64,000 nt of DNA from the human T2T-CHM13v2.0 reference genome, Homo sapiens. The stretch's first letter is position 1, and each line of letters starts with the position of its first letter. This document shows positions 10,839 through 29,574 of this stretch, in pieces. Made by a program: the position numbers and the translations under genes. The notes beneath the pieces are model-generated. The model was not told the origin of the DNA. It did no database searches and saw only the letters and a program-made list of their open reading frames with translations. The stretch is from the NCBI RefSeq assembly GCF_009914755.1, contig NC_060935.1; one strand, 5' to 3'.

Positions 10839-13289
10839 CAGAAAGAAATAAGAAAGAATCAAACCTTAGTACTAAAGAAAATAACCAAATAACAAAGGCA
10901 GACAAGAGAGGAAGAAAAGAAAATTGGATTTGCAAAAGAACCAGAAAACAATTAGCAATATGACAATCACAAGTCTTTGTTTATCACTAATATCCTTGAA
11001 TTTAAGTAAATTAAATTTTTCAATTGAAAGTCAGCGTGGCTGAATCAATAAGAAACAAGATCCAAGTATGTGTTTCTGGCAAGAGACCTACTTTAGCTTT
11101 AAAGACACACAAGGCTAAAAGTGGAGGAATGGAAAAAGATATTTTATGCAAATAGAAACCAAAGGAGGTCAGAGGTGGTTATGCTTTTATCAGATAAAAT
11201 AGACTTTATGTCAAAAATTGTCACAAGACAAAGAATGTTATTATTTAGTGATGAAGAGTTCAATTAATCAGGAGGACATAACAATTATAAATATATATGC
11301 ACCAAACTTTGGAGCAACTAAATATATAAAGCACATATTAATGGACATGAAGGGAGAAACAGATAGCAATACAATAATATAGGCATCTTCAATACCTTAA
11401 AAATAGATTAACCAGACAGAAAATTAATCAGGAAATTCTGAACTTGAATTGTCCACCAAATGGACCTAATGGACATATATAGAACATTCCATCCTAAAGC
11501 AACAGAATATTCATTCTTTTCTGGTGCATATGAAACATTCACTAAGATAGATTATATGTTAGGCCACAAAATAAGTGTTAATCATTAAAAAGATTGAAAT
11601 TCTATCAAGTATAATTTCTGACTATACCGATACTTAACTAGAAATCAATAACTGGAGGAATATTCCTCCTCCACAAATTCACAAATATGTAGAAATTAAA
11701 CAACATGCTCCTGAACAACCAAAGAAGAAATTAAAAGAGAAATTTAAAAATATCTTGAGATTAATGGCAATGAAAACACAATAAAACCTATGGAATGCAA
11801 AAAAAAAAGAAAGTTCTAAGAGGAAATTTTATAGCAATAAATGCCAGTATTTAAAAAAGAAAGATTCAAAATAAATAGTCTAACATTACACCTCAGGAAA
11901 ACAGATTTAAAAAGGTCAAAATGAACACAATGTTAGCAGGAAAAAAAAGAGAAAACAAAGATGAGAAATAAAGCGATGATTAAAAAATACAAAGAAAAAA
12001 TTAGTAAACTAGGATTTGATTTTTAAAAAATAAACACAACTGACAAATCTTTAGCAGAACTAATAAAAAAAGAGAGAACACTCAAATAAATAAAATCGGA
12101 AATGAAGGTAGAGACATTACAACAGATGCCTCAGAAATAAAAAGGATAATAAGGGACTATAATGAATAATTAAAGGCCAATAATGAGATAACCTAGCGGA
12201 AATTGATAAATCTTTGGAACATACGATCTACCAAGATAGAATGAGGAAGAAATAGAAAGACTGTGCAGACTGATAACAAATAAAAAGATGGAAGTAGTAA
12301 TTTAAAATTTCTCAACAAAGAAAATCTCAGGACCAGATGGCTTTATTGCTAAATTCTAAATAAATAAATAAATAAATAAATAAAGAGTTAATACCTCTTA
12401 AACTATTCCAAACTAGACAAAGACACCATAAAAAATGAAAGTTGAGACCAGTATATCTGAAGAATATTGATGCAGAAATCCTCAAAATATTAGAAAACTA
12501 AATTCAACAACACATCAAAAATGTTACATATCATGACCAAGTAGGATTTATCCCTGGCATGCAGAGCTGGTTTAATGTATGCAAATCAATCAGTGTGATA
12601 CATCACATTAACAGAATGAAAGACAAAACCACATGATCATTACAACAGATACTGAAAAAGCATTTGACAAAGTTCAACATCCTTTCTTGTTAAAAATACT
12701 CAACAGTTTATGTATAAAAAGAAAGTTCCTCAATATAGTAAAGACTATTTATAAAAACCCACAGCTATCATTATAATTAATATAGAAAAACTGAAATATT
12801 TTTCTCTAATATTTAGTTCAGGGCAAGCATAACCACTTTCACCATTTCTATTCAATATTGTATTAGAAATTCTAGTCAATGTAATCAGAAAAGAGAAAAA
12901 TTAAAAGCTATCCAAATCAGAAAAGAAGTAAAATTATTTCTATTTGCCTATGGCATGATCCTATATGTAGAAAACCTCAAAAACCACCCTCCACCCACTA
13001 GCACTGTTAGAAATAATAAATTAATTGACTAAAGTTGCAGGATACAAAATCAACAAACAAAAATTAGCTAAATGTTTGCACACAATTAAAAACTTAGCTG
13101 AAAAGAAATAAAGAAAACAATCCTATTTATATTAGCATCAAAAATATATAGGAATAATTTTAACCAAGGAATTGAAAGATCTGTATAGTAAAAACTATAA
13201 AACATTGATGAAAGAAATTGAAGACACAAATAAATGGACAGATATCCTGTGTACACACATTAGAAGAAATATTGTTAAAATGTCTATGC

Positions 13290-14364: not shown

Positions 14365-15757
14365 TCTATGGTTTGAAGCCTTGAATGTTTGTGTCCTTTC
14401 CAAAATGCATGTTGAAACTTAATCTCAAATGCAATAGTTTGGGCCTTTAAGAGGAAATTAGGTCATGATGACTCCTCCCTCATGGATGGAATTAAGGTCC
14501 TTATAAAAGAGGCTTCACAAGACATTTGGACTATTTCACCCTTCCATTCATTCCACCATGTGAGGACACAGTTTGTCCTATCTGGAAGATGCAGCAACAA
14601 GATACCATCTTGGAAGCAAGCAATGTGACCCTAAGTAGATGCTGAATCTGTGGCACCTTGATTGTGGACTTCTCAGTTCCAAAACTGTGAGAAATAATTT
14701 TCTATTTTTTATAATTACCCAGTTTGTGGTATTCTGTTATAGCAGCACAAATGGACTAAGAAAGAAACTGGTACCAATAAGTGGAGTACTGCTGTATCGA
14801 ACACCTAAAAATGTGGAAGTGGCATTGGAACTGGGTAATGGGTAGAGGCTAGTCTCTAACAGACGATTCTGGTAAGGACTAAGAAGAAGAGAGCTGTAGA
14901 CAGAACCTCAGTCTTAGAGATTATTTTAGTGGTTGTAATTACAATATCAATTAAAATGTGGGCAGTGAGTGCCATTCTGATGTGGTGTCAGATGGAAATG
15001 AGAAATAATTAAAAACTGGAGGGGGCCAGGTGCAGTGGTTCAATGCCTGTAATCCCATTCACTTTGGGAGGCCGAGGTGGGCAGATTACTGGAGGTCAGG
15101 AGCTCAAGACCAGTTTGGCTGACATGGTGAAACCTCGTCTCTACCAAAAATACAAAAATTAGCCTGTCATGGTGGTGCACACCTATAATCCCAGCTACTC
15201 AGGAGGCTGAGGCTGTAGAATTGCTTGAACCTGGGAGGCGGAAGTTGCCATGAGCCAAGATCGCACCACTACACTCCAGCCTGGGTGACAAAGTGAGACT
15301 CCATCTCAAAAAAAAAAAAAAAAAAAAAGTGGATCAAAGGCCATCCTTGTTATCAAGTGGCAAAGAATATGGCTGAATTGTGTCTATGTCCCAGGGCTTT
15401 GTGGAAGGCAGAACTTAAAGGCAATGAACTAGGATGTTTGGTGAAATAAATATCTAAGTGAAGTGTTCAGGGAACTGACTGCTTATAATAAAATACGGGA
15501 AGAGAGAAATGAATTAAAAGATAAAATGTATAATCAAAAAGTAAGTGAAATTTAAAGATTTAGAAAATTATCAGCCTGGCCATGTGAAGATAAAAGGCTG
15601 TTCAAGAAAGAAAATTAAAGGTATGGCCAAGCTACTGTTTAAATAAGAAATATATATGTGTAGGTAGAAGCCAGATACTATTCACTAGAACAGTGGAGGG
15701 GTGATCCCAGTGATATTTGGAAGATCTTTGGGGCTCCCACTCCCATTACAGGTGCCA
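14365..15757 (+). mobile_element. MaLR LTR (MST/MLT1A-like) plus start of internal region
   Basis: LTR ends GTTATAGCAGCACAAATGGACTAAGA (~14761), then the internal signature ACTGGTACC...AAAATGTGGAAGTGGCATTGGAACTGGGTAATGGGTAGAGGCT. Confidence 0.82.
15024..15328 (+). mobile_element. Alu (AluS-like) within MaLR internal region
   Basis: Full dimer with poly(A); imperfect TSD AAAAA(C/G)TGGA. Confidence 0.95.
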
Positions 15758-20976: not shown

Positions 20977-22166
20977 GGAGGGATCCCTAGAACTAGAAAT
21001 GCCAGGGAGACAGTTTTGCCCATGGACCTGCAGGAACAAGAGATATTTTATGGAGAATGTGCACAGAGAGTTGTATATATTGTTAGAGAAACACCAAAAT
21101 TTATCTCCAACTCCTTTGTTGTCAAACATAAATATCTGTTTCTGAGCTCTGCCACGGGAACTTGGGAGCACTTCAGGTGAGTGCAGAGCCAGGAAAAGAT
21201 GCATCAAAATGAGTAGAAAAAGTCGTGGCATTTTACTCGTCCTGGCCTCTCTCACCCTGATACAGTGAGACTCGATCTGGAGAAAACCCTGAAGTCCCAG
21301 CTTCTCCCTTAGGGAAGCAACAGGAGTGGGCCATGAGTCCAGCATTCTGGGTTTCCAGCGGGGTTGCCCAAGGCACTGGTTTCTGTCTTATATGACTCAG
21401 AGTGCAGAGTTTGGATGCCATGTTGGGGGCCTCTGAGAACAAAGGCAAGCACCCTGTTTCAGCACTAGGGAGATTGTAGTACTGAAGGCGGACACCAGGG
21501 GGAGAAAGAGGTTACGGGCTCCAGACAAGAAACAAGCAAACCTCTTTAACTGGGAAATTACACACACAAGCCCATAAAAAGCTTGAAGGGCCCCTAGAAT
21601 CTCTAGCTATGCTAACCAATAAAGGTCTTCCAATGTATGAAGCCAGTCTGTAATGACTGGAGGAGGTTGGGTGTATTTTTCAAATATTAAAAGCACTGCA
21701 GGATAAAAACTAAGAGCATGTCTAGTAAAATATGATAAACATATCTAAGATGCATGCTAATAGACAAAAAATAAATGATTAGAGTGCATTTGTCTAAAAA
21801 ATTCATCAAATATATGGCAATACAGTTGTTGTCAGTAGGACTGGGCAAAGGGACATTGCTGCATATTGCAAATTTTGTGTGACCCTTTGCCTCTGGATAT
21901 TGGGACCTCTCAAGATTCATGCTGCTGCCACCCTGTGATGTGTTTATTATCTACAATGGACTGTGTCAAACATTATGGAAAAATCCTCATGATACCAAGG
22001 TTGTGTGGCTTTCACTGCTCCATAATATCAGTTTCTTTCTCTAACACACAGGCCAAGTCTGGACTAATTGGCAGAAACTGACTTACCAGTTTTGCAGCCA
22101 GAACTTGGGAGCTCTGTACTTTTAAGAGCTAAATCTATTTTTTCTTCCGTAGTTGGCAACACCATT

Positions 22167-22313
22167 ATGACATCACAACCTGTTTCCAATGAGGCCATCA
22201 TAATGCTCCCATCAAATGTCATCAACTTCTCCCAAGCAGAGAAACCCGAACCCACCAACCAGGGGCAGGATAGCCTGAAGAAACGTCTACAGGCAAAAGT
22301 CAAATTTATTGGG
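22167..22313 (+). CDS. MS4A6E: MS4A6E coding exon 1 (aa 1-49, MTSQPVSNEAIIMLPSNVINFSQAEKPEPTNQGQDSLKKRLQAKVKFIG)
   Basis: Acceptor TTTCTTCCGTAG| at 22152, ATG at 22167, phase-0 donor GGG|GTAAAT at 22314; recognisable MS4A6-family N-terminus. Confidence 0.96.
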
Positions 22314-23114
22314 GTAAATCTAATTCAGAACATGTTGGAGAGGGGTTAGGGGAAGTGGGAAGAGATGATGTATGTTTTGGGACTGGTCATCCTTGTGAGT
22401 GTGGAGACCCTTAAGTTTTGCTGGAGGGGCTTTGGGGTAGAAGCCACTTGGAGAAAACTGTCCCAGAACTTTTCCACAGGAGATTGTCTTAGAAACGTTT
22501 TTTCCCTTATTCTGAATATGAGGAGTTGATTTTCTGTTGTTGTCTTTGTATTTTTGCAATACAGTACTTCTCTATATTTTCTTTTACGAAAGTAATGGTG
22601 GTAAATAATGACATATTGTATATACATTTTTCTGTATTTCACAACTGCATGCTTAACAATCCACACTGATTCTTTGCAAGGAATTTTTCCCTTACTGCAA
22701 ATTACAGAAAAAATATACCTCCTCTCCCTGTTTTCTTCTTACCTTTTTGAGAATGGAAATGATATTTACCTTTTATTTGTCTGTTTCTCCTCTCATCCAG
22801 AGTTTATTAAAGAAGCTGTATTGCATGAAGGGAGGAGAGAAAGAAGGGATCTATCTTGGATTGGGAGGGAAACACAGAGTTTTGGTTTCTAGACTTGCCT
22901 CTGCACTTACGTGATCTGAGGTGAGGCACTCTGTTTGACTGGATTTCAGGACCTGGTGGGACTGGTTTCCTTGCCTCATGTACAATCATATGGGTTTCTA
23001 TGAGGCTCAGGTGACAAAAGGTCTAGGAAACTTCTTGGTAAATGATAATAGAGCTGTGAATCTCTGAGGTGGATGTCAGGAAGGAAAACTACCTCCTAAG
23101 ACAGAGCTTCAGTT

Positions 23115-23273
23115 ATACATGAGAACATGCAGTATTTGGTTTTGTTAGTTTGCTAAGGGTGGTGGCCTCTAAATGATGAGAACACATGGACACGTAGAAG
23201 GGAACAATGCACACTGGGGCCTTTCAGAGGGTGGAGGGTGGGAGGAGGGAGAGGATCAGGAAAAATAACTAAT
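23115..23273. mobile_element. Short L1 3'UTR fragment in two opposite orientations (MS4A6E intron)
   Basis: GAGAACATGCAGTATTTGGTTTT...TTAGTTTGCTAAGG (antisense) joined to GAGAACACATGGACAC...GAGGGTGGAGGGTGGGAGGAGGGAGAGGATCAGGAAAAATAACTAATG (sense). Confidence 0.75.
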
Positions 23274-23423
23274 GCACAGAAACTCAATTTGGAAGCTCTG
23301 GCTACAAAAATCTCCCAAAGCCAGCAAGGAAGTCAGAGAGAGTGCCCAGAAAAATGCCAGTTCTTTCTTTCCCTCGTTGGTATTTAGAGATTATTGTTTG
23401 GAACCCTCAGTTACAATCCAACA

Positions 23424-23645
23424 CTAGATCTGTGCTGTGCAATGTAACTGTCTATGATGGAAATGAAATGTAACTTTCTATGATGATGGAAATCCACAAC
23501 AGCTGCACTGTTACAATATGGCGGTCACATGTGGCTATCGATGATGTGAAATATGGATAGTGCAACTGAATTTTAAATTTTACTTAATTTTACTTCAAAT
23601 ATAAGTAGCCCATGTGGCTACTGGCAACCATACTGAGTAGCCTAG
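23424..23645. mobile_element. MER3-like hAT DNA transposon remnant
   Basis: CTGTGCTGTGCAAT...ATGATGGAAAT...CACATGTGGCTA...TGAATTTTAAATTTTACTTAATTT...CATGTGGCTACTGGC. Confidence 0.7.
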
Positions 23646-24505
23646 TACAAGAGTAATGTTTTCAAACTTTTAGTAGGAAATATATGGGCCTCTTACTCCA
23701 GAGAACAATCCCACAGTGAACATGCAGGAAGCTCAAGGATGCAGGATGTGGTCTCGGGGTGGGCTCAGACTCACCAGAGACATCGAGGCTTTAGTGAGTT
23801 CTACTCTTGTCACACATTGTACCAGCCCTTTTTGAGATTGAAGAAGAGTGCCATCTCAAGACAAATCTAGCTTATTCTAAGAAATATAGACTCTAGGCAT
23901 CAAGACTACTACTGGCTACTAGGAGGCCCAGGAGTGTACACTTCAGTCATTATGTTGGGAAATTGGGGTCCCAGAGCATCAACTGGTGAGTTCCTAAAAG
24001 AAGAAGTGCCCATATGGGATTAAATAACACTCTACTGTATGGCTGTGGGATGTGCCCTGGAGCCTACCTACCTGTAACAATAGCTTTCAGAATGCTGTGA
24101 GCTCAGTTCTCTTTTCTGTGTGAGTTGGAGTAAAGGAAGTCACTTCTGAGGTCAGTTTATTTATTTCCTCCACTTCATAAATGTAGAAATGAGAACCAGA
24201 GTGGGAAATAAAACCAAGGAACTGAGTACCCAAGGGAACAAGCTGGGTCAAGTCTATATTGTGACCTCAATTTTCTGACATCCAGTCCAGGCCTTTATTC
24301 TGTACCTCCCGCTGCCTCCCACACATTACACCATCCTTGGGCCCGCACCTAGACCTCTGCCCACAGCCACCCCATGCTGCGCTCAATGTGGCCAGTCATA
24401 TGCCTGCCCAGGTTCCAGGGCCTGCCTGAGACTCAGAACCACCCCCTCACTCATCTTTGAGAGGTGTGCTTTTGAGAGAGGCAATAGGCACGCAAAAGTG
24501 AGCTA

Positions 24506-24584
24506 TTAGGTTGGTGCAAAGGTAATTGCGGTTTTGCCATTGAAAGTAGTGGCAAAACCCAAAATTACTTTTGCACCATGCTAA
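24506..24584. mobile_element. MADE1 (mariner-derived MITE), palindromic
   Basis: TA|TTAGGTTGGTGCAAAGGTAATTGCGGTTTTGCCATT...GTGGCAAAACCCAAAATTACTTTTGCACCATGCTAA|TA; TA TSDs, long TIRs. Confidence 0.93.
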
Positions 24585-25011
24585 TACACCATCCAGATTT
24601 TCTGTGTGGTTGATGCTTGCACGAGGGGTTTCTGAGTTGGCCGAGAGAGAAACTGCATCTGGTACATTGCCACCTTTGCTTGTGGTCACACTCACAGTAA
24701 TTTTCCAGGCAAGCCTCGTGGGCCCTGCTATCTGTCCCAGGGAAAGAATTTAGGAGAGTAACATTCTCTACCACACTACTGAGGTCCTGTTTGAGGGGAA
24801 CCAGTTCATATGTTCATTCATTCAGCCAAGTTTTACGTTGCAGATTCTGAGTTTTTGGCTGGACACTGGAGAGGCCTACAACAAGAAATGATCCCTCCGG
24901 GACTTCCTGAGGGAGACAGATAAGGGAATAACTTGCAATGTAATGGCAAAAAGGGATAAGAGAGATTCGTGGCCCTTTGGGAATGATTCTTACCCACCAT
25001 GTCTCTTTCAG

Positions 25012-25218
25012 GTGCATAGCAGCCTGGCTGGAAGCATTCTGAGTGCTCTGTCTGCCCTGGTGGGTTTCATTCTCCTGTCTGTCAACCCGGCTGCATTAAA
25101 TCCTGCCTCATTGCAGTGTAAGTTGGACGAAAAGGATATACCAACCAGACTTCTTCTTTCTTATGATTATCATTCACCTTACACCATGGACTGCCATAGA
25201 GCCAAAGCCAGTCTGGCT
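25012..25218 (+). CDS. MS4A6E: MS4A6E coding exon 2 (aa 50-118; TM helix plus Cys-flanked extracellular loop)
   Basis: Acceptor TCTCTTTCAG|GTG, 207 nt, donor GCT|GTAAGT; VHSSLAGSILSALSALVGFILLSV...QCKLDE...DCHRAKASLA. Confidence 0.96.
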
Positions 25219-27136
25219 GTAAGTATTTTTTAGATGGGATGTTCTAATTTTATGAGGTTTCTGAAAGCCTTGATTTCTTATTATTCCATCCTTTGAAAAT
25301 CTCTCTGTTAATTCTGGTTTGGGCATCTGGAGGAAGGCCAAGGTTATGTAAATCAAAGGGGGGCTGCATGGATGAGATTAAGGGGATTACATACTAACAG
25401 AGTGGAATTGAAATGTCAGATAAGGTTGATGATGAAAAACTAAAACTTACGGTTTGTAGAGTTTCTTAATTACTCAACTAATCTAATTTTGGAGGCATAA
25501 ATTATGAGTTTGTCAAACTGAGAATGTTGGTACATAGAGTGGTGAATTCAGATTGGCAAACAGAGCAGAAAGACCCGGGTGATCAGAAAATGCTGACAAG
25601 GAAATGTGGTATGTGTGTGTGGTAGGGGGTCAGTTTGGTCTAAAAAGACATCAGACTAAAGATGAAGAAACAGAGAATAGGAAATATGGGGTTAGATGGT
25701 AAGGGTTTCTCCTAATGATTACAATAATGAATAATACTAATCAGGTGAAACGGTAACATTATTATTGCTTTTTGTTATAGCTGAAAGAAGTGTGATATCT
25801 TAAATCAGGAGATAAGAAATATAGGGAGATGGAGAGTGTAACTGAGAATTATCGCAGGAGAATTCTCTCTCTTTGGAAGAAGAAAAACAATGAAGTTTGG
25901 CTAACAGAAATAATGTGTCTGAAGTTGAAAAATTAAGGGGTATGTGCATGGCCAGCAACGCATTGAGAGGAAAACAGGCAACATAAAAGTAAAGAAGTTG
26001 CAGAATATTTATTGTCCTGCAATCATAAAAATGAGGTCAGCCAAGAACTCACCTGGACGATGGACAGATAGAAAGGTCTGGTCAAATTCATGCTTGTACA
26101 GCACCCATTATAAACTGAGCCTTGCTTCCAAGGTAATGGTATAATGAGGAAAAAGTGCATGCAAATGAGGCTGACAGTAATTGGTACAAATTCCACCTTG
26201 GGAAAAATTCTGGAGAGAAATTTGGGAGAAATTTGGTAGTGATAAAGTATAAATTCATGATGGGACGATTTTATATTGGAAATAAGAGAGATTCTGTTGA
26301 GCTTGCTTGCTGGAACAATTTCTAGGTAATGGACACAACATGTATCTTCTATTTAACTGTGTGTAAATACCACAAAACAAAAGTTCATGTGATCAAATTA
26401 TCCCCCTTTATTATCAGATGACCAGTTCTGCACAAAGAATGTCTCAGGACAGAAATGGTAGAACTCATCCTTGTGAGTTGGTGTTGGTGATTAGCAACAG
26501 TTTACTACCTTCACTGTTTTTTTCCAAGTCTTAAAACACCAAAAACAGCAAAAATAAAAAATAAACAACAAAAATAAAAAACATCCAAACAGGTTCAGAT
26601 ACATAGACAGGGATGTCAATACTGAATTTTACAAAGGGCTTACACAGCCAAAACCTCCTTGATCCTCACAAATCTCTGAGAAATAAATGTTAGTATGCAT
26701 GTTTGATACATGAGGAAACAGGAGCTAGAGAAAGAAAGAGACTTGTCCAGGCTTACACAGCTACTCAGCAGTAAAGATGAGACTATAATGGAGCTGCTGA
26801 TTCTCAGTCCTGGGAGCTATTACACCACTCTGCTCTCTTACTGAGTGAACAATGTCATCAGAACTACGTACGTCTCAAAGAAGTGAGAAACAAGTGTATG
26901 AAATGGATTAGTTGATTTAGTTACTACTCATCTTCCCTTCTCTTCTCAAGAAACTGAATGAGTGAAGGAGTTGAATTAAGACAATTGTGAGGAGGAGCAG
27001 TTTTGTTTTCCTGATTGTTTCCTTACTTCATTCTCTAATGGTTGAGGTGGTCTTCATCTCTATGGTCACCTCTAAACTAGGCATGAAAGCTTCGGCTGAC
27101 CCAAGCATCACTGATATTTTATTTCTTGACTTTCAG

Positions 27137-27226
27137 GGAACTCTGTCTCTGATGCTGGTTTCTACTGTGTTGGAGTTCTGCCTAGCTGTGCTCACTGCTG
27201 TGCTGCAGTGGAAACAGACTGTCTGA
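27137..27226 (+). CDS. MS4A6E: MS4A6E coding exon 3 (aa 119-147 plus TGA; last TM helix)
   Basis: Acceptor TTGACTTTCAG|GGA; GTLSLMLVSTVLEFCLAVLTAVLQWKQTV*; spliced total 49+69+29 = 147 aa; a further donor TGG|GTGAGT lies at 27236. Confidence 0.95.
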   Translation, partial: GTLSLMLVSTVLEFCLAVLTAVLQWKQTV

Positions 27227-28023
27227 CTTCCCTGGGTGAGTGTGCTGGCCAGCCTCGCTTAATCTTGCCTAGTGTATCTTATCTCTGCACTGTGTTGAGT
27301 ATGTCACCAAGAGTGGTAGAAGGAACAATCAGTCAGTCATGAGATACACATGGGAGGTCATTTAAATGGTGATGGAAGACCGAGAAGAAAAGCAGATGGT
27401 AATTGAGTAGCTGACAAGCTGAGAGTTCACTGGATATGAAAATAGTTAAAATGAGAACTCAACTGGTTCATTCTTCCCATTTTGTCATTGAAGGGAATGA
27501 GACTCTGGGAAGTTAAATGACTGGGCTGGCATTATGATATGAGTTTGTACCTGTGCTGAGGACGCTAGAACCTGGCTTGCCTCCCTTCTAAGCAGAAACA
27601 ATTTCTGCCACAACCACTAGTCTCTTTAATAGTATTGACTTGGTAAAGGGCCTTTACACATGTGACTGGATCCAGTGAATGTCTTATGCTCTGCTTTTCC
27701 TCCTGGTGATTTTAAAATTCTTTTTCCTTTTAAAAGATATATTAAAAATGTATTGTTGAATCAAATTCCAAGGGATACCACCCCTATGGACTTATTGCTT
27801 TATTTAACTGAATTTAAAAGCCTTGATTTATCCAGAATTTTATTATAGAGAATAGAAGAATACTAGACTGATAAATTGTAATTATTTGAAGAACCCAGTG
27901 ATCTGCTCTACTTGTCTTGGATTAGCTAAGAATTCTATGTATACAGTTGGAAAAAATGGCATATCCACATGTATCTTGAACCTGAGTAAAGTCTGAAGAC
28001 CTAACATACTTTGTTTCTTCTAA

Positions 28024-28127
28024 AGTGTGCTTTTCCTGCCTCACAGTTACTCATGTCCTCAAAGACGACTCATGATGCTGGATATGAAGAACTATTGACT
28101 TCTTGGGAAAAAACGGAGAAATATTAA
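28024..28127 (+). pseudogene. Fossil MS4A6A-type terminal coding exon, now presumably MS4A6E 3'UTR
   Basis: Translates SVLFLPHSY / MSSKTTHDAGYEELLTS, matching the recalled MS4A6A C-terminus SVLFLPHSYIGNSGMSSKMTHDCGYEELLTS, with an internal deletion and an altered acceptor. Confidence 0.85.
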
Positions 28128-28586
28128 TTGGAAAGTTGATTTTTATGATAATATGGAAAACCTAACCATTATAAAAAAGCAAACTTGAGTTTCCTAAATG
28201 TAAGCATTTAAAGTAATGCATATTTGTTTTAAAAAATTATTTCGCTGTCATTTATGATATGTGTTCATTGGGGATCTCTTGGTTTGCCTGATACTGACTT
28301 CAGCAAAAGCACAGGGCTGTAAATTACCATTTACTAGACTAGCCAAATAGTCTTAGACATTTCCCAGAAAACTAGGCAGAATGATGATTCAATGGATCAC
28401 AGTGAGGCAAAGGATACAGCTTTTTCTTATACTCCTCAATTGTGAACAGGAGTTAACTGATTTGCTGTGGTGCGCAGACTCTTTTATCACAGGTGCTACT
28501 GATTTATCCCATGTATTTTACTCATTAGTGCATAAAGGCAAACCCCATAATGAAGTCTCCGAGTGTATGAAAGTAGCCGGCTTCAA

Positions 28587-28657
28587 AATAAAATCTTTGA
28601 GTGCATACTTTATTTTAATACTTATTTTGTTATTTTTTCCTTTAAACACAGAATAAA
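28587..28657 (+). terminator. Candidate polyadenylation signals for MS4A6E
   Basis: AATAAA at 28587-28592 followed by a T-rich tract, and AATAAA at 28652-28657; usage not provable from sequence. Confidence 0.45.
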
Positions 28658-29412
28658 TCAACAATGACAGACATAAACCCAAATTTTAACTCAATTTTCT
28701 CCTCACCAATATTCAAACAAAACTAATGAGTGAACAAATGCTAACCAGGAATGCTTATCTGTTATGAAGAGACAACCAGTTCATACTTACGTCCTTATTT
28801 CAAAATAAAAAAGACGAATTGTTTGAGTATAACAAACATAAGCCTCACCTTGCTCATGCACACACACGCACACACACACACACACGTGTAAAAAAGTATT
28901 TCAATTTTATATGACCTCCATTTCTTTGAAAGATTTTGTCATATTTCCTTGCTCTGACCCTCTGTAGCAGGGGTCATACTTCATACTCACTGTCTCAGAT
29001 ATCCTGATACTCAGAGAGTTTCTCTGCTCTTTTTTTCCAGTCTCAAATGGAACTGTCAGTTTCTTTGATTTTAGCTTTATCTTCAAATCTGTTTCATTAG
29101 GTCTTCTCCCTGTCCTTTGCACCCCCCACTGACACACACCATTTCTTTTATTTATTTGCCTATTGTGGACATTCAACTTTTATTGATACTTATTGGATAC
29201 CAGACACTATGCTTTTAATGCCAGGGCTACCAAAGTGAATAAGATACATGATTTGGCTTCAAGATATTTATAGTCAAATAAGGAAAACAGAGATGACAAT
29301 GAAGTTAGGGATTTCGCTAACTGTTATTTGAGCACAGAATAAAGACACTAACTGTTATTTGAGCACAGAATAAAGAATATCATCTTCTGCCTAAAAGAAT
29401 GTAGAGGATAAA

Positions 29413-29415
<3 letters not shown>

Positions 29416-29468
<53 letters not shown>
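29416..29468. repeat. Compound (TG)n(AG)n microsatellite
   Basis: Direct reading. Confidence 0.95.
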
Positions 29469-29469
<1 letters not shown>

Positions 29470-29574
29470 AGGGGGGGGAGAGAAAGACAGAAAAGACAGA
29501 ATGTACTTCCTTTGAAAATCCACCTCCCCACTATTAATCACATGGTGCCACCTTCCGCCACAGGAGAGGACCAT

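What the first reader, a model, noticed from the sequence alone, without database searches (positions are those of the whole stretch)
27221..28127. A single UGA-C stop hides an in-frame YEEL (hemi-ITAM-like) tail behind MS4A6E
Seen: the MS4A6E stop TGA (27224-27226) is followed by exactly 9 nt (CTT CCC TGG) and a consensus donor GTGAGT (27236). Two downstream acceptors, AAAG|28026 and pyrimidine-tract CACAG|28047, are both in frame with ATG 28053. That frame reads MSSKTTHDAGYEELLTSWEKTEKY* (TAA 28125-28127). Readthrough or stop loss would give a 177-aa (28047) or 184-aa (28026) protein with the tyrosine motif restored. Known (recalled): MS4A6A ends ...SDFPGSVLFLPHSY...THDCGYEELLTS with a hemi-ITAM-like motif, and UGA followed by C is the leakiest stop context. 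Inference: several indels relative to MS4A6A cancel out, so MS4A6E might switch between a tail-less and a signalling-competent form. Caveats: frame restoration has a 1-in-3 chance of being accidental, and the context is UGA-CUU, not the strong UGA-CUAG motif.
Basis: partly seen in the sequence, partly recalled or inferred. Interest (0 to 1): 0.8.

Follow-up and report, generated by a model that had tools for sequence, protein, structure and literature searches.

The report
Fossil YEEL tail behind MS4A6E stop
The in-frame YEEL peptide behind the human MS4A6E stop codon is real, but it looks like a leftover of the parent gene MS4A6A that landed in frame by chance, not a hidden signalling tail switched on by stop-codon readthrough.

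Summary
TGA 27224-27226 is followed by CTTCCCTGG and a GTGAGT donor. Acceptors at 28026 and 28047 both join in frame to a tail containing YEEL that ends at TAA 28125-27. That gives 177 or 184 aa.

The proposed readthrough switch is not supported.
- MS4A6E is a decayed copy of MS4A6A. It lacks the TM1 and TM2 exons.
- Its stop arose by a 2-bp deletion.
- It also has a 1-bp loss at the donor, a dead ancestral acceptor, a 13-bp deletion and a lost ancestral stop.
- The indels sum to -18 or -39. One frame in three would do this by chance.
- The tail is 90.2% identical to MS4A6A, against 92.1% for the intron.
- No primate MS4A6E-type model that continues past exon 4 in the normal frame reaches YEEL (0 of 9). 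Five use another frame (...KDDS). The human DNA still encodes that tail, 16 of 16 identical to orangutan.
- Published UGA-CUU contexts read through at 0.13-0.66%, close to the 0.10-0.20% of the UAA contexts in the same table.
- No unusual RNA structure follows the stop.

Verdict: an ordinary relic, of low interest.

The parts
27137..27235 (+). MS4A6E exon 4, homologue of the MS4A6A TM4 exon. It is 99 nt here against 102 nt in MS4A6A.
   Evidence: Identity to the MS4A6A exon is 89.9%, excluding gap columns.
27218..27226 (+). Site of the 2-bp deletion relative to MS4A6A. MAFFT places the gap between 27220 and 27221. The deletion shifts the frame and creates the TGA stop at 27224-27226.
   Evidence: alignment. 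One search shows the ancestral ...SDFP reading surviving in frame 2.
27234..27241 (+). G-run plus GTGAGT donor. The run has 3 G here and 4 in MS4A6A, a 1-bp loss at the exon end.
28022..28025 (+). The ancestral acceptor, CTAG|AG in MS4A6A, reads CTAA|AG here and is lost. A new AG lies 2 nt downstream, giving the possible acceptor at 28026.
   Evidence: alignment. acceptor listing.
28047..28612 (+). Last exon of NM_139249.4 (hub annotation), all 3'UTR. Its first 81 nt hold the fossil of the MS4A6A C-terminal coding exon.
   Evidence: Hub gene table..
28050..28051 (+). Site of a 13-bp deletion relative to MS4A6A, in the part that encodes IGNSG there.
   Evidence: alignment, columns 959-971.
28053..28127 (+). 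Frame A ORF, MSSKTTHDAGYEELLTSWEKTEKY plus TAA. YEEL lies at 28083-28094. TGG at 28104-28106 replaces the MS4A6A stop TAA.
   Evidence: 46 of 51 nt are identical to MS4A6A.
28025..28075 (+). Frame B ORF, VCFSCLTVTHVLKDDS plus TGA. This is the C-terminal tail used by the orangutan, Old World monkey and Saimiri MS4A6E models.
   Evidence: 16 of 16 identical to orangutan P0003, 13 of 16 to Cercocebus P0005..
25012..25218 (+). Exon 3, covering TM3 and the extracellular loop. An internal donor after 25117 is used by other RefSeq transcripts. With it, exon 4 is read in its open third frame and the protein ends ...VTHVLKDDS without any readthrough.
   Evidence: Hub gene table..
23273..23274 (+). Breakpoint where about 3.2 kb of the MS4A6A-type sequence is missing. 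The missing segment holds the TM1 and TM2 exons.

Best explanation
The YEEL reading frame is a fossil of the MS4A6A-type C-terminal coding exon. It now lies in the 3'UTR of MS4A6E, a decaying anthropoid-primate duplicate of MS4A6A.

Shown here:
- Human MS4A6E has lost the TM1 and TM2 exons and keeps two hydrophobic spans.
- Its stop was made by a 2-bp deletion near the end of exon 4.
- The exon end lost one more G.
- The ancestral acceptor is mutated.
- 13 bp are missing from the last exon.
- The ancestral stop is gone.

These lesions happen to sum to a multiple of three along the annotated splice path. So the old YEEL frame sits in frame behind the TGA.

Inferred:
- The coincidence is accidental (prior 1 in 3).
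- The tail stopped being translated in the normal frame of this gene at least before catarrhines diversified.
- It is still recognisable only because neutral divergence since the duplication is about 8-10%.
- Ribosomes terminate at the UGA with ordinary efficiency. Extended product would be a few per thousand at most.
- Because the stop lies 9 nt before the last exon junction, the main mRNA escapes nonsense-mediated decay under the 50-55-nt rule (established knowledge). The 147-aa two-span protein can therefore be made.
For: 1. Paralogy and lesions.
- The genome search found the MS4A6A exon at 88% identity, 101 nt against 99 nt.
- The 1.2-kb alignment shows the -2, -1 and -13 indels, CTAG>CTAA at the acceptor and TAA>TGG at the old stop.
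- Homology runs only over window 21686-29574. About 3.2 kb holding the TM1 exon (12751-12885) and the TM2 exon (14401-14457) is missing.
- No TM1 or TM2 match was found in window 14000-37000.
- There are two hydrophobic spans. Passages in two papers call MS4A6E a truncated gene with 2 TM domains and not a four-TM protein.

2. No extra constraint.
- YEEL-frame segment: 46 of 51 nt identical (90.2%).
- Intron: 711 of 772 (92.1%).
- Exon 4: 89.9%.
- dN/dS over the three retained exons is 1.19 (9 synonymous and 33 non-synonymous differences).

3. Orthologue models. I count 25 MS4A6E-type models among the 52 hits.
- 10 end at or next to the human stop position.
- 3 end at ...SDFPG or ...SDFPV.
- 5 continue in frame B (...KDDS).
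- 4 continue in frame C (...CPQR).
- 3 are isoforms with exon 4 read out of frame.
- So 0 of the 9 that continue in the canonical frame reach YEEL.
- Human DNA keeps the frame B tail, 16 of 16 identical to orangutan.

4. Stop context (UGA CUU CCC).
- Schueren 2014 table, HeLa cells: PRDM10 TGA CTTCCA 0.13%, DHX38 UGA CUU G 0.27%, EDEM3 TGA CTTGCT 0.66%. UAA contexts gave 0.10-0.20%. LDHB gave 1.55% and MDH1 2.91%.
- Loughran 2014 passages: the three nucleotides after the C are critical, and deleting CUAG makes readthrough almost undetectable.

5. Folding the spliced RNA after the stop gives z-scores from -1.93 to +0.57 against 200 dinucleotide shuffles, over 6 length and acceptor combinations.

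6. The word-index protein search with the tail found only 2 candidates, both siamang models. It found no human model.
Against: - UGA followed by C is the generally weakest stop class (passages). A little extended protein is therefore almost certainly made whenever the mRNA is translated. Nothing here measures how much.
- The frame is open in siamang too. Two predicted siamang isoforms (P0049, P0050) end in ...HDAGYEELLTSWEKREKC by alternative splicing. So the frame can reach protein in gene models of this lineage.
- With two membrane spans, the tail would face the cytoplasm as it does in MS4A6A (inference). Topology does not exclude a role.
- GYEELLTS (24 nt) is unchanged between the paralogues. 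By my arithmetic, 0.92^24 is about 0.13, which is unremarkable but not nothing.
- Orthologue evidence rests on predicted protein models, not on primate DNA, which these tools do not hold.
- With tail columns removed, platyrrhine '6E' and catarrhine 6E do not form one clade. One clade is not rejected either (p-AU 0.246).
- No expression, Ribo-seq, proteomic or population data were available.
Confidence: 0.9

Rival explanations
1. Regulated or basal readthrough of the UGA makes a functional 177-aa MS4A6E with a cytoplasmic YxxL tail that recruits SH2-domain kinases.
For: - The tail is in frame along the annotated junction.
- The stop is UGA with C at +4, a weak stop class.
- YEEL is the same tetrapeptide that opens the full ITAM encoded by a neighbouring MS4A gene...DRVYEELNIYSATYSEL....
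- The predicted cytoplasmic side is right.
Against: - Measured UGA-CUU contexts gave 0.13-0.66%.
- There is no CUAG motif and no unusual RNA structure.
- Tail divergence equals intron divergence.
- 0 of 9 canonical-frame orthologue models use this frame.
- The protein lacks TM1 and TM2.
- The literature search for MS4A6E plus readthrough listed 2 papers. By title and abstract, neither is about this (listing only).
Confidence: 0.03
2. Some people carry a stop-loss or frame-restoring allele at 27224-27226. In carriers the YEEL-tailed protein would be the main product, with a possible bearing on the Alzheimer-associated MS4A locus.
For: - A single base change in the TGA would give the 177-aa protein.
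- The orangutan model (...KQTDFPG...) shows that this exon end has been re-framed again in evolution.
- The locus is an Alzheimer GWAS locus (passages).
Against: - No population data were available here. One genome only was read, and RefSeq has the same stop.
- Nothing suggests such an allele exists.
- The GWAS signals discussed in the passages are common non-coding SNPs.
Confidence: 0.03
3. ATG 28053 starts an independent 24-codon downstream ORF in the 3'UTR. It would make a micropeptide or tune translation of the main ORF.
For: An ATG-to-TAA ORF of 24 codons exists.
Against: - The start context is poor: C at -3 and T at +4 (the Kozak rule is established knowledge).
- The ATG is simply the Met codon of MSSK inherited from MS4A6A.
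- In Old World monkey models the frame-B residue over this position differs (P for H). This implies that the ATG is not kept there (inference).
Confidence: 0.02

Closest known systems
C-terminal coding exon of human MS4A6A (paralogue at G000:C11, about 60.12 Mb, minus strand)
   Same: It is the direct homologue. The 1.2 kb compared are about 91% identical, including the intron. MSSK.THD.GYEELLTS is shared, 15 of 17 residues.
   Different: In MS4A6A the exon is translated in the canonical frame of a four-span protein. It ends at TAA straight after ...LLTS. In MS4A6E it lies behind a stop, has lost 13 bp and its acceptor, and runs 7 codons further.
ITAM of the neighbouring MS4A gene (FcεRIβ/MS4A2 by recall; exon at G000:C11:60046856)
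   Same: The first YxxL is the identical tetrapeptide YEEL, in a C-terminal cytoplasmic tail of an MS4A protein. The review passage gives the ITAM consensus for MS4A2.
   Different: The neighbouring gene has the whole motif, YEEL-x6-YSEL with a further Tyr between. The MS4A6E frame has one YxxL only. Its second Tyr, 9 residues after the Leu, is the last residue.
Mammalian readthrough genes with UGA-CUA(G): OPRL1, OPRK1, MAPK10, AQP4, MDH1, LDHB
   Same: UGA stop with C at +4 and U at +5, and an open in-frame extension.
   Different: Positions +6 and +7 are U and C, not A and G. Those genes show a conserved motif and a conserved extension and 1.5-31% readthrough (abstract and passages). None of this is seen here.
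PRDM10 stop context (TGA CTTCCACCCT), measured by Schueren et al. 2014
   Same: It shares TGA CTTCC with MS4A6E, which has TGA CTTCCCTGG.
   Different: It is another gene, and the upstream context differs. Its 0.13% readthrough is only a proxy for MS4A6E.

Membership tests
Efficient or programmed stop-codon readthrough genes of mammals (UGA-CUAG class) | UGA stop codon | tested here: met
   TGA at 27224-27226.
Efficient or programmed stop-codon readthrough genes of mammals (UGA-CUAG class) | CUA(G) immediately 3' of the stop | tested here: not met
   The sequence is CUUC. The motif definition comes from Loughran 2014 and Schueren 2014 passages.
Efficient or programmed stop-codon readthrough genes of mammals (UGA-CUAG class) | The extension is conserved as coding sequence across species | tested here: not met
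   0 of 9 canonical-frame MS4A6E-type primate models read the YEEL frame. Divergence from MS4A6A equals that of the intron.
Efficient or programmed stop-codon readthrough genes of mammals (UGA-CUAG class) | Measured readthrough well above background | not testable with these tools
   Proxy only: published UGA-CUU contexts gave 0.13-0.66%.
ITAM / hemITAM signalling motifs | YxxL/I in a cytoplasmic segment | tested here: met
   YEEL at 28083-28094 in the hypothetical extension. The cytoplasmic side is inferred from two hydrophobic spans.
ITAM / hemITAM signalling motifs | A second YxxL/I 6-12 residues later (full ITAM) | tested here: not met
   The second Tyr is the C-terminal residue and no xxL/I follows it. 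Compare the full motif in the neighbouring gene and the consensus in the passage.
ITAM / hemITAM signalling motifs | An acidic cluster just before the Tyr (hemITAM of C-type lectin-like receptors, DEDG-type; definition recalled) | tested here: not met
   The preceding residues are H-D-A-G, with one acidic residue only. The definition is from memory, not from a call.
ITAM / hemITAM signalling motifs | Tyrosine phosphorylation and Syk/SH2 recruitment | not testable with these tools
   No assay was possible.
MS4A / CD20 family (PF04103) | Sequence membership in PF04103 | tested here: met
   The bonobo orthologue P0002 (147 aa, 99% identical over exon 3) carries a precomputed PF04103 assignment. 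However, the six-frame PF04103 search listed no match inside the window at E<=10 (0 of 37 listed matches). The spliced human protein itself was not scanned.
MS4A / CD20 family (PF04103) | Four membrane spans | tested here: not met
   The TM1 and TM2 exons are absent. There are two hydrophobic spans. The literature passages agree.
Fossil coding sequence in the UTR of a truncated gene duplicate | Homology to a translated exon of the parent gene | tested here: met
Fossil coding sequence in the UTR of a truncated gene duplicate | Frame-breaking lesions and lost signals between the CDS and the fossil | tested here: met
   The -2, -1 and -13 indels, AG>AA at the acceptor and TAA>TGG at the old stop.
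Fossil coding sequence in the UTR of a truncated gene duplicate | Divergence no lower than that of neutral flanks | tested here: met
   90.2% against 92.1% for the intron.

The most novel reading that the evidence does not exclude
In hominoids that carry the TGA, leaky termination at UGA-C on an mRNA that escapes nonsense-mediated decay supplies a small, possibly cell-type-dependent pool of a two-span MS4A6E with a cytoplasmic YEEL tail. YEEL is the same tetrapeptide that opens the FcεRIβ-type ITAM. This minor form, or a rare stop-loss allele that makes it the major form, would modulate myeloid signalling at the Alzheimer-associated MS4A locus.
Probability: 0.03. Interest if true: 0.55.

Novelty: already known. 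Interest (0 to 1): 0.12.

Why it matters
MS4A6E lies in the MS4A cluster associated with Alzheimer's disease (passages). A hidden signalling tail there would be worth knowing about.

The evidence instead shows an ordinary decaying duplicate, already described in print as a truncated MS4A gene with 2 TM domains. The practical value of this check is threefold.
- It removes a tempting false lead.
- It documents exactly which lesions separate MS4A6E from MS4A6A.
- It shows that the tail used by the other primate MS4A6E models is a different frame (...KDDS), which human DNA still encodes.

Anyone modelling MS4A6E function or designing antibodies or peptides should use these facts, not the YEEL frame.

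Tried and rejected
- Topology argument. I expected that a missing span might put the tail outside the cell. Rejected: both TM1 and TM2 are missing, so two spans remain and the C-terminus stays cytoplasmic.
- Pfam scan of the spliced human protein. It was not run, so family membership rests on the precomputed PF04103 of orthologues. The six-frame PF04103 scan of the genome listed nothing in the window.
- RNA structure after the stop. Nothing beyond shuffled controls.
- Search with the tail peptide. The first query of 33 aa was under the 40-aa minimum. The 40-aa query found only the two siamang models. It did not even list MS4A6A proteins, so it is weak evidence of absence.
- A single 6E clade including platyrrhines. 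It was supported at 93/93 when 7 tail columns were included. It was not recovered without them, and not rejected either (p-AU 0.246). I therefore give the counts for catarrhines (0 of 5) and platyrrhines (0 of 4) separately as well.
- Rows left out of the trees. Daubentonia P0043 was dropped and P0045, because each lacked the anchor motif used to cut the sequences.
- Literature on a hemi-ITAM in MS4A6A. None of the 12 listed papers contains 'MS4A6A'. The MS4A review passages name an ITAM only for MS4A2. This is not an exhaustive search.
- Supplementary files of the readthrough papers were not opened. They may hold further UGA-CUU measurements.

Full report
OBSERVATION

The sequence is exactly as described. 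Exon 4 (27137-27235) ends ...CAG ACT GTC TGA CTT CCC TGG, followed by GTGAGT. AAAG|28026 and CACAG|28047 are 21 nt apart. Both are in frame with ATG 28053.

The frame from 28047 reads LLMSSKTTHDAGYEELLTSWEKTEKY and stops at TAA 28125-28127. Splicing the annotated exons in a script gives a 147-aa protein. Beyond the stop there are 29 further residues via 28047 (177 aa) or 36 via 28026 (184 aa). The junction 27235>28047 is the one in the RefSeq transcript of the hub table.

WHAT THE GENE IS

The window's genome holds one other copy of exon 4. It is 88% identical and 101 nt long against 99 nt, on the minus strand about 167 kb upstream. Its translated exons match orangutan and human MS4A6A proteins at 90-100% and end ...SDFPG / SVLFLPHSYIGNSGMSSKMTHDCGYEELLTS.

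Homology between the two genes covers only window 21686-29574. About 3.2 kb of the MS4A6A gene has no counterpart in the window, and the two flanks abut at window 23273/23274. The missing piece holds two exons:
- the 135-nt TM1 exon, which matches PF04103 positions 4-41;
- the 57-nt TM2 exon.

tblastn with a four-span orangutan MS4A6E model found no TM1 or TM2 match in window 14000-37000. The human protein keeps two hydrophobic spans, at about residues 52-79 and 115-143. This agrees with passages in Zuccolo et al. [quoted passage not shown]

THE LESIONS BETWEEN THE CDS AND THE YEEL FRAME

The 1.2-kb alignment (mean column identity 91%) and the splice-site listing show five differences from MS4A6A:
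- a 2-bp deletion near 27220/27221, which shifts ...TCT GAC TTC CCT GG into ...GTC TGA CTT CCC TGG and so creates the stop;
- one G fewer in the G-run at the donor;
- the ancestral acceptor CTAG|AG now reads CTAA|AG, with a new AG 2 nt further on (28026), while RefSeq uses 28047;
- a 13-bp deletion at 28050/28051;
- the MS4A6A stop TAA is TGG here, so the frame runs 7 more codons.

Along the path to 28026 the length changes are -2, -1, -2 and -13, which sum to -18. To 28047 the sum is -39.

IS THE COINCIDENCE MORE THAN CHANCE?

No. Only one of three frames gives YEEL. The other two frames of this exon are also open for a stretch: VTHVLKDDS and YSCPQRRLMMLDMKNY.

The segment 28053-28103 is 46 of 51 nt identical to MS4A6A (90.2%). 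The intron between the two exons is 711 of 772 (92.1%), and exon 4 is 89.9%. So the tail is no better conserved than non-coding DNA.

Over the three retained coding exons, dN/dS between the paralogues is 1.19 (9 synonymous and 33 non-synonymous differences). This fits relaxed constraint, though positive selection cannot be excluded.

By my arithmetic, intron divergence of about 8% corresponds to roughly 40 million years at a recalled neutral rate of about 1e-9 per site per year. At that divergence an unchanged 24-nt GYEELLTS has probability of about 0.13.

ORTHOLOGUES

A protein search with exon 3 returned 52 proteins. I read the C-termini of all of them. Eighteen contain YEEL.
- Sixteen are MS4A6A-type or outgroup proteins. 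One is a Callithrix model named 6E that is identical to Callithrix 6A in the tree region. Another is a colugo model that falls outside the anthropoid groups.
- Two are siamang isoforms, discussed below.

I count 25 MS4A6E-type models. Seventeen are placed in the trees. The rest I assigned by name and near-identity to rows of the same species.

| Ending | Models | Count |
|---|---|---|
| At or next to the human stop position (...QTV, ...QTL, ...IQT) | bonobo, gorilla, three gibbons, baboon, gelada, Aotus, Cebus, Saimiri | 10 |
| ...SDFPG or ...SDFPV | | 3 |
| Continue in frame B, ...GVCFSCL.VT..KDDS | orangutan, Cercocebus, Chlorocebus, M. fascicularis, Saimiri | 5 |
| Continue in frame C, ...CPQR | macaque, two Aotus, Cebus | 4 |
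| Isoforms with exon 4 read out of frame | gelada P0048, siamang P0049 and P0050 | 3 |

So 0 of the 9 models that continue in the canonical frame reach YEEL: 0 of 5 in catarrhines and 0 of 4 in platyrrhines. The orangutan frame-B tail is 16 of 16 identical to the translation of human 28025-28072.

On grouping:
- Catarrhine 6E forms a group with SH-aLRT support of 89.
- Platyrrhine and catarrhine 6A form a group with support of 86.
- Platyrrhine 6E is a third group.
- A single 6E clade is neither recovered nor rejected (p-AU 0.246). It had 93/93 support when seven tail columns were included.

My inference is that the YEEL frame left the canonical reading frame of this gene before catarrhines diversified, probably earlier. 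The platyrrhine tails (...IDKSACPQR) look like a 1-bp loss at the place where catarrhines lack 13 bp. This is an inference from proteins, and primate DNA is needed to confirm it.

The shared ...QTV ending of gibbons, gorilla, bonobo and human suggests that the 2-bp deletion dates to the ape ancestor. The orangutan's ...KQTDFPG would then be a secondary 4-bp loss that restored frame B. This is a parsimony argument and is not shown.

EVIDENCE ON THE OTHER SIDE

Two predicted siamang isoforms (P0049, P0050) do end ...TSLECAFPASQLLMSSKTTHDAGYEELLTSWEKREKC. They use the short form of exon 3 and read exon 4 in its third frame, which is open in human too. They enter the last exon 2 nt upstream of the 28026 position, the place of the ancestral acceptor, which reads AA in human. 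So frame A is intact in a gibbon and can be reached without readthrough in a gene model. But that product has a frame-shifted TM4.

In human, the same short-exon-3 isoform runs into frame B, whichever acceptor is used:
- via 28047, a 126-aa product ending ...VTHVLKDDS;
- via 28026, a 133-aa product.

READTHROUGH LIKELIHOOD

The context is UGA CUU CCC.

Loughran et al. 2014 (abstract and passages) report:
- efficient readthrough needs UGA-CUAG;
- the three nucleotides after the C are critical in OPRL1;
- deleting CUAG makes readthrough almost undetectable;
- UGA-CUA alone supports 1.5%.

Schueren et al. 2014 (table and text passages) measured these contexts in HeLa cells:

| Context | Readthrough |
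|---|---|
| PRDM10, TGA CTTCCACCCT | 0.13% |
| DHX38, UGA CUU G | 0.27% |
| EDEM3, TGA CTTGCT | 0.66% |
| UAA contexts in the same table | 0.10-0.20% |
| LDHB | 1.55% |
| MDH1 | 2.91% |

PRDM10 shares TGA CTTCC with MS4A6E.

Folding the spliced RNA that follows the stop gave z-scores between -1.93 and +0.57 for six length and acceptor combinations. No sign of a stimulatory structure was found.

A full-text search for MS4A6E with 'readthrough' listed two papers. By title and abstract, neither concerns this (listing only).

THE MOTIF

A neighbouring MS4A gene, which I recall to be FcεRIβ/MS4A2, encodes ...PEDRVYEELNIYSATYSELEDPG.... So YEEL is literally the first half of the family's ITAM, for which the review passage gives the consensus. 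The MS4A6E frame has only that half. A second Tyr sits 9 residues after the Leu, but it is the last residue, and siamang has Cys there.

The acidic cluster that I recall as typical of hemITAMs is absent: the preceding residues are H-D-A-G. I found no paper describing a hemi-ITAM in MS4A6A in the listings and passages I saw. This search was not exhaustive.

MECHANISM AND VERDICT

The most likely account (about 0.9) is that the YEEL ORF is a fossil of the MS4A6A-type last coding exon in the 3'UTR of a decayed duplicate, brought into frame behind the stop by accident.
- Termination at the UGA is ordinary.
- The stop lies 9 nt before the last junction of the main transcript, so the mRNA should escape nonsense-mediated decay (50-55-nt rule, established knowledge).
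- The product is the known 147-aa two-span protein.
- Any extended protein would be a few per thousand of it, with no evidence of selection.

Rivals are functional readthrough (0.03), a segregating stop-loss allele (0.03) and a downstream ORF starting at ATG 28053 (0.02).

NOVELTY

The truncation of MS4A6E is in print. The detailed lesion map and the frame-B tail are small additions. Interest is low.

WHAT REMAINS OPEN

Primate DNA, expression, ribosome profiling, proteomics and population variants could not be examined. The supplements of the readthrough papers were not opened.

Noticed in passing
window 23273-23274: The two flanks of a roughly 3.2-kb segment of the MS4A6A gene abut here. The missing segment holds both the TM1 exon (135 nt) and the TM2 exon (57 nt). 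This explains why human MS4A6E has two spans. A gorilla model (P0004) and gibbon models still contain the TM2 exon, so the loss may be recent.
   Followed up: partly
window 28025-28075: A second ORF in the MS4A6E 3'UTR, in another frame, encodes VCFSCLTVTHVLKDDS plus TGA. It is 16 of 16 identical to the C-terminus of the four-span orangutan MS4A6E model and 13 of 16 to Cercocebus.
   Followed up: yes
window 25012-25117 with 27137-27235 and 28047: The short form of exon 3 (donor GTAAGT after 25117, listed for other RefSeq transcripts) puts exon 4 into its third frame. That frame is open (NSVSD...TDCLTSL). The predicted 126-aa product ends ...VTHVLKDDS, with no readthrough.
   Followed up: partly
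P0003 (orangutan MS4A6E model, 238 aa): This model reads ...RWKQTDFPGVCFSCLTVTHVLKDDS and has all four spans. Compared with the human ...KQTV-stop, the exon end looks re-framed by a further small deletion. That would make orangutan the only ape among the models seen whose canonical frame runs on past the human stop position.
   Followed up: no
P0049, P0050 (siamang models): These predicted isoforms reach the YEEL frame by alternative splicing. They enter the last exon 2 nt upstream of the 28026 position, where the ancestral acceptor lies (AA in human). They end ...GYEELLTSWEKREKC.
   Followed up: yes
P0010 (Chlorocebus, 241 aa): The TM1-TM2 part looks like catarrhine MS4A6A (…QVTSTLLNS…FFFIISGSLSIATEK). 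The rest, including the ...KDDS-type tail, looks like 6E. This could be gene conversion between the paralogues or a chimeric gene model.
   Followed up: no
window 22167-27217 against the MS4A6A exons: Pairwise dN/dS over the three retained coding exons is 1.19. Exon 2 has 8 non-synonymous and 0 synonymous differences.
   Followed up: partly
window, whole: The six-frame PF04103 (CD20) scan of the genome listed 37 matches at E<=10. None lies inside this window, although MS4A6E lies here. Its surviving exons are too short or too diverged to score singly.
   Followed up: no
P0033, P0035, P0046: Some MS4A6A models (two from orangutan, one from an unnamed source) continue after ...SDFPG into a long second part that looks MS4A-like. 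This suggests read-on transcripts or fused gene models with a neighbouring MS4A gene.
   Followed up: no
G000:C11:60046856 (L006): An exon of a neighbouring MS4A gene encodes a complete ITAM...DRVYEELNIYSATYSEL..., about 5 kb downstream of a PF04103 match.
   Followed up: partly
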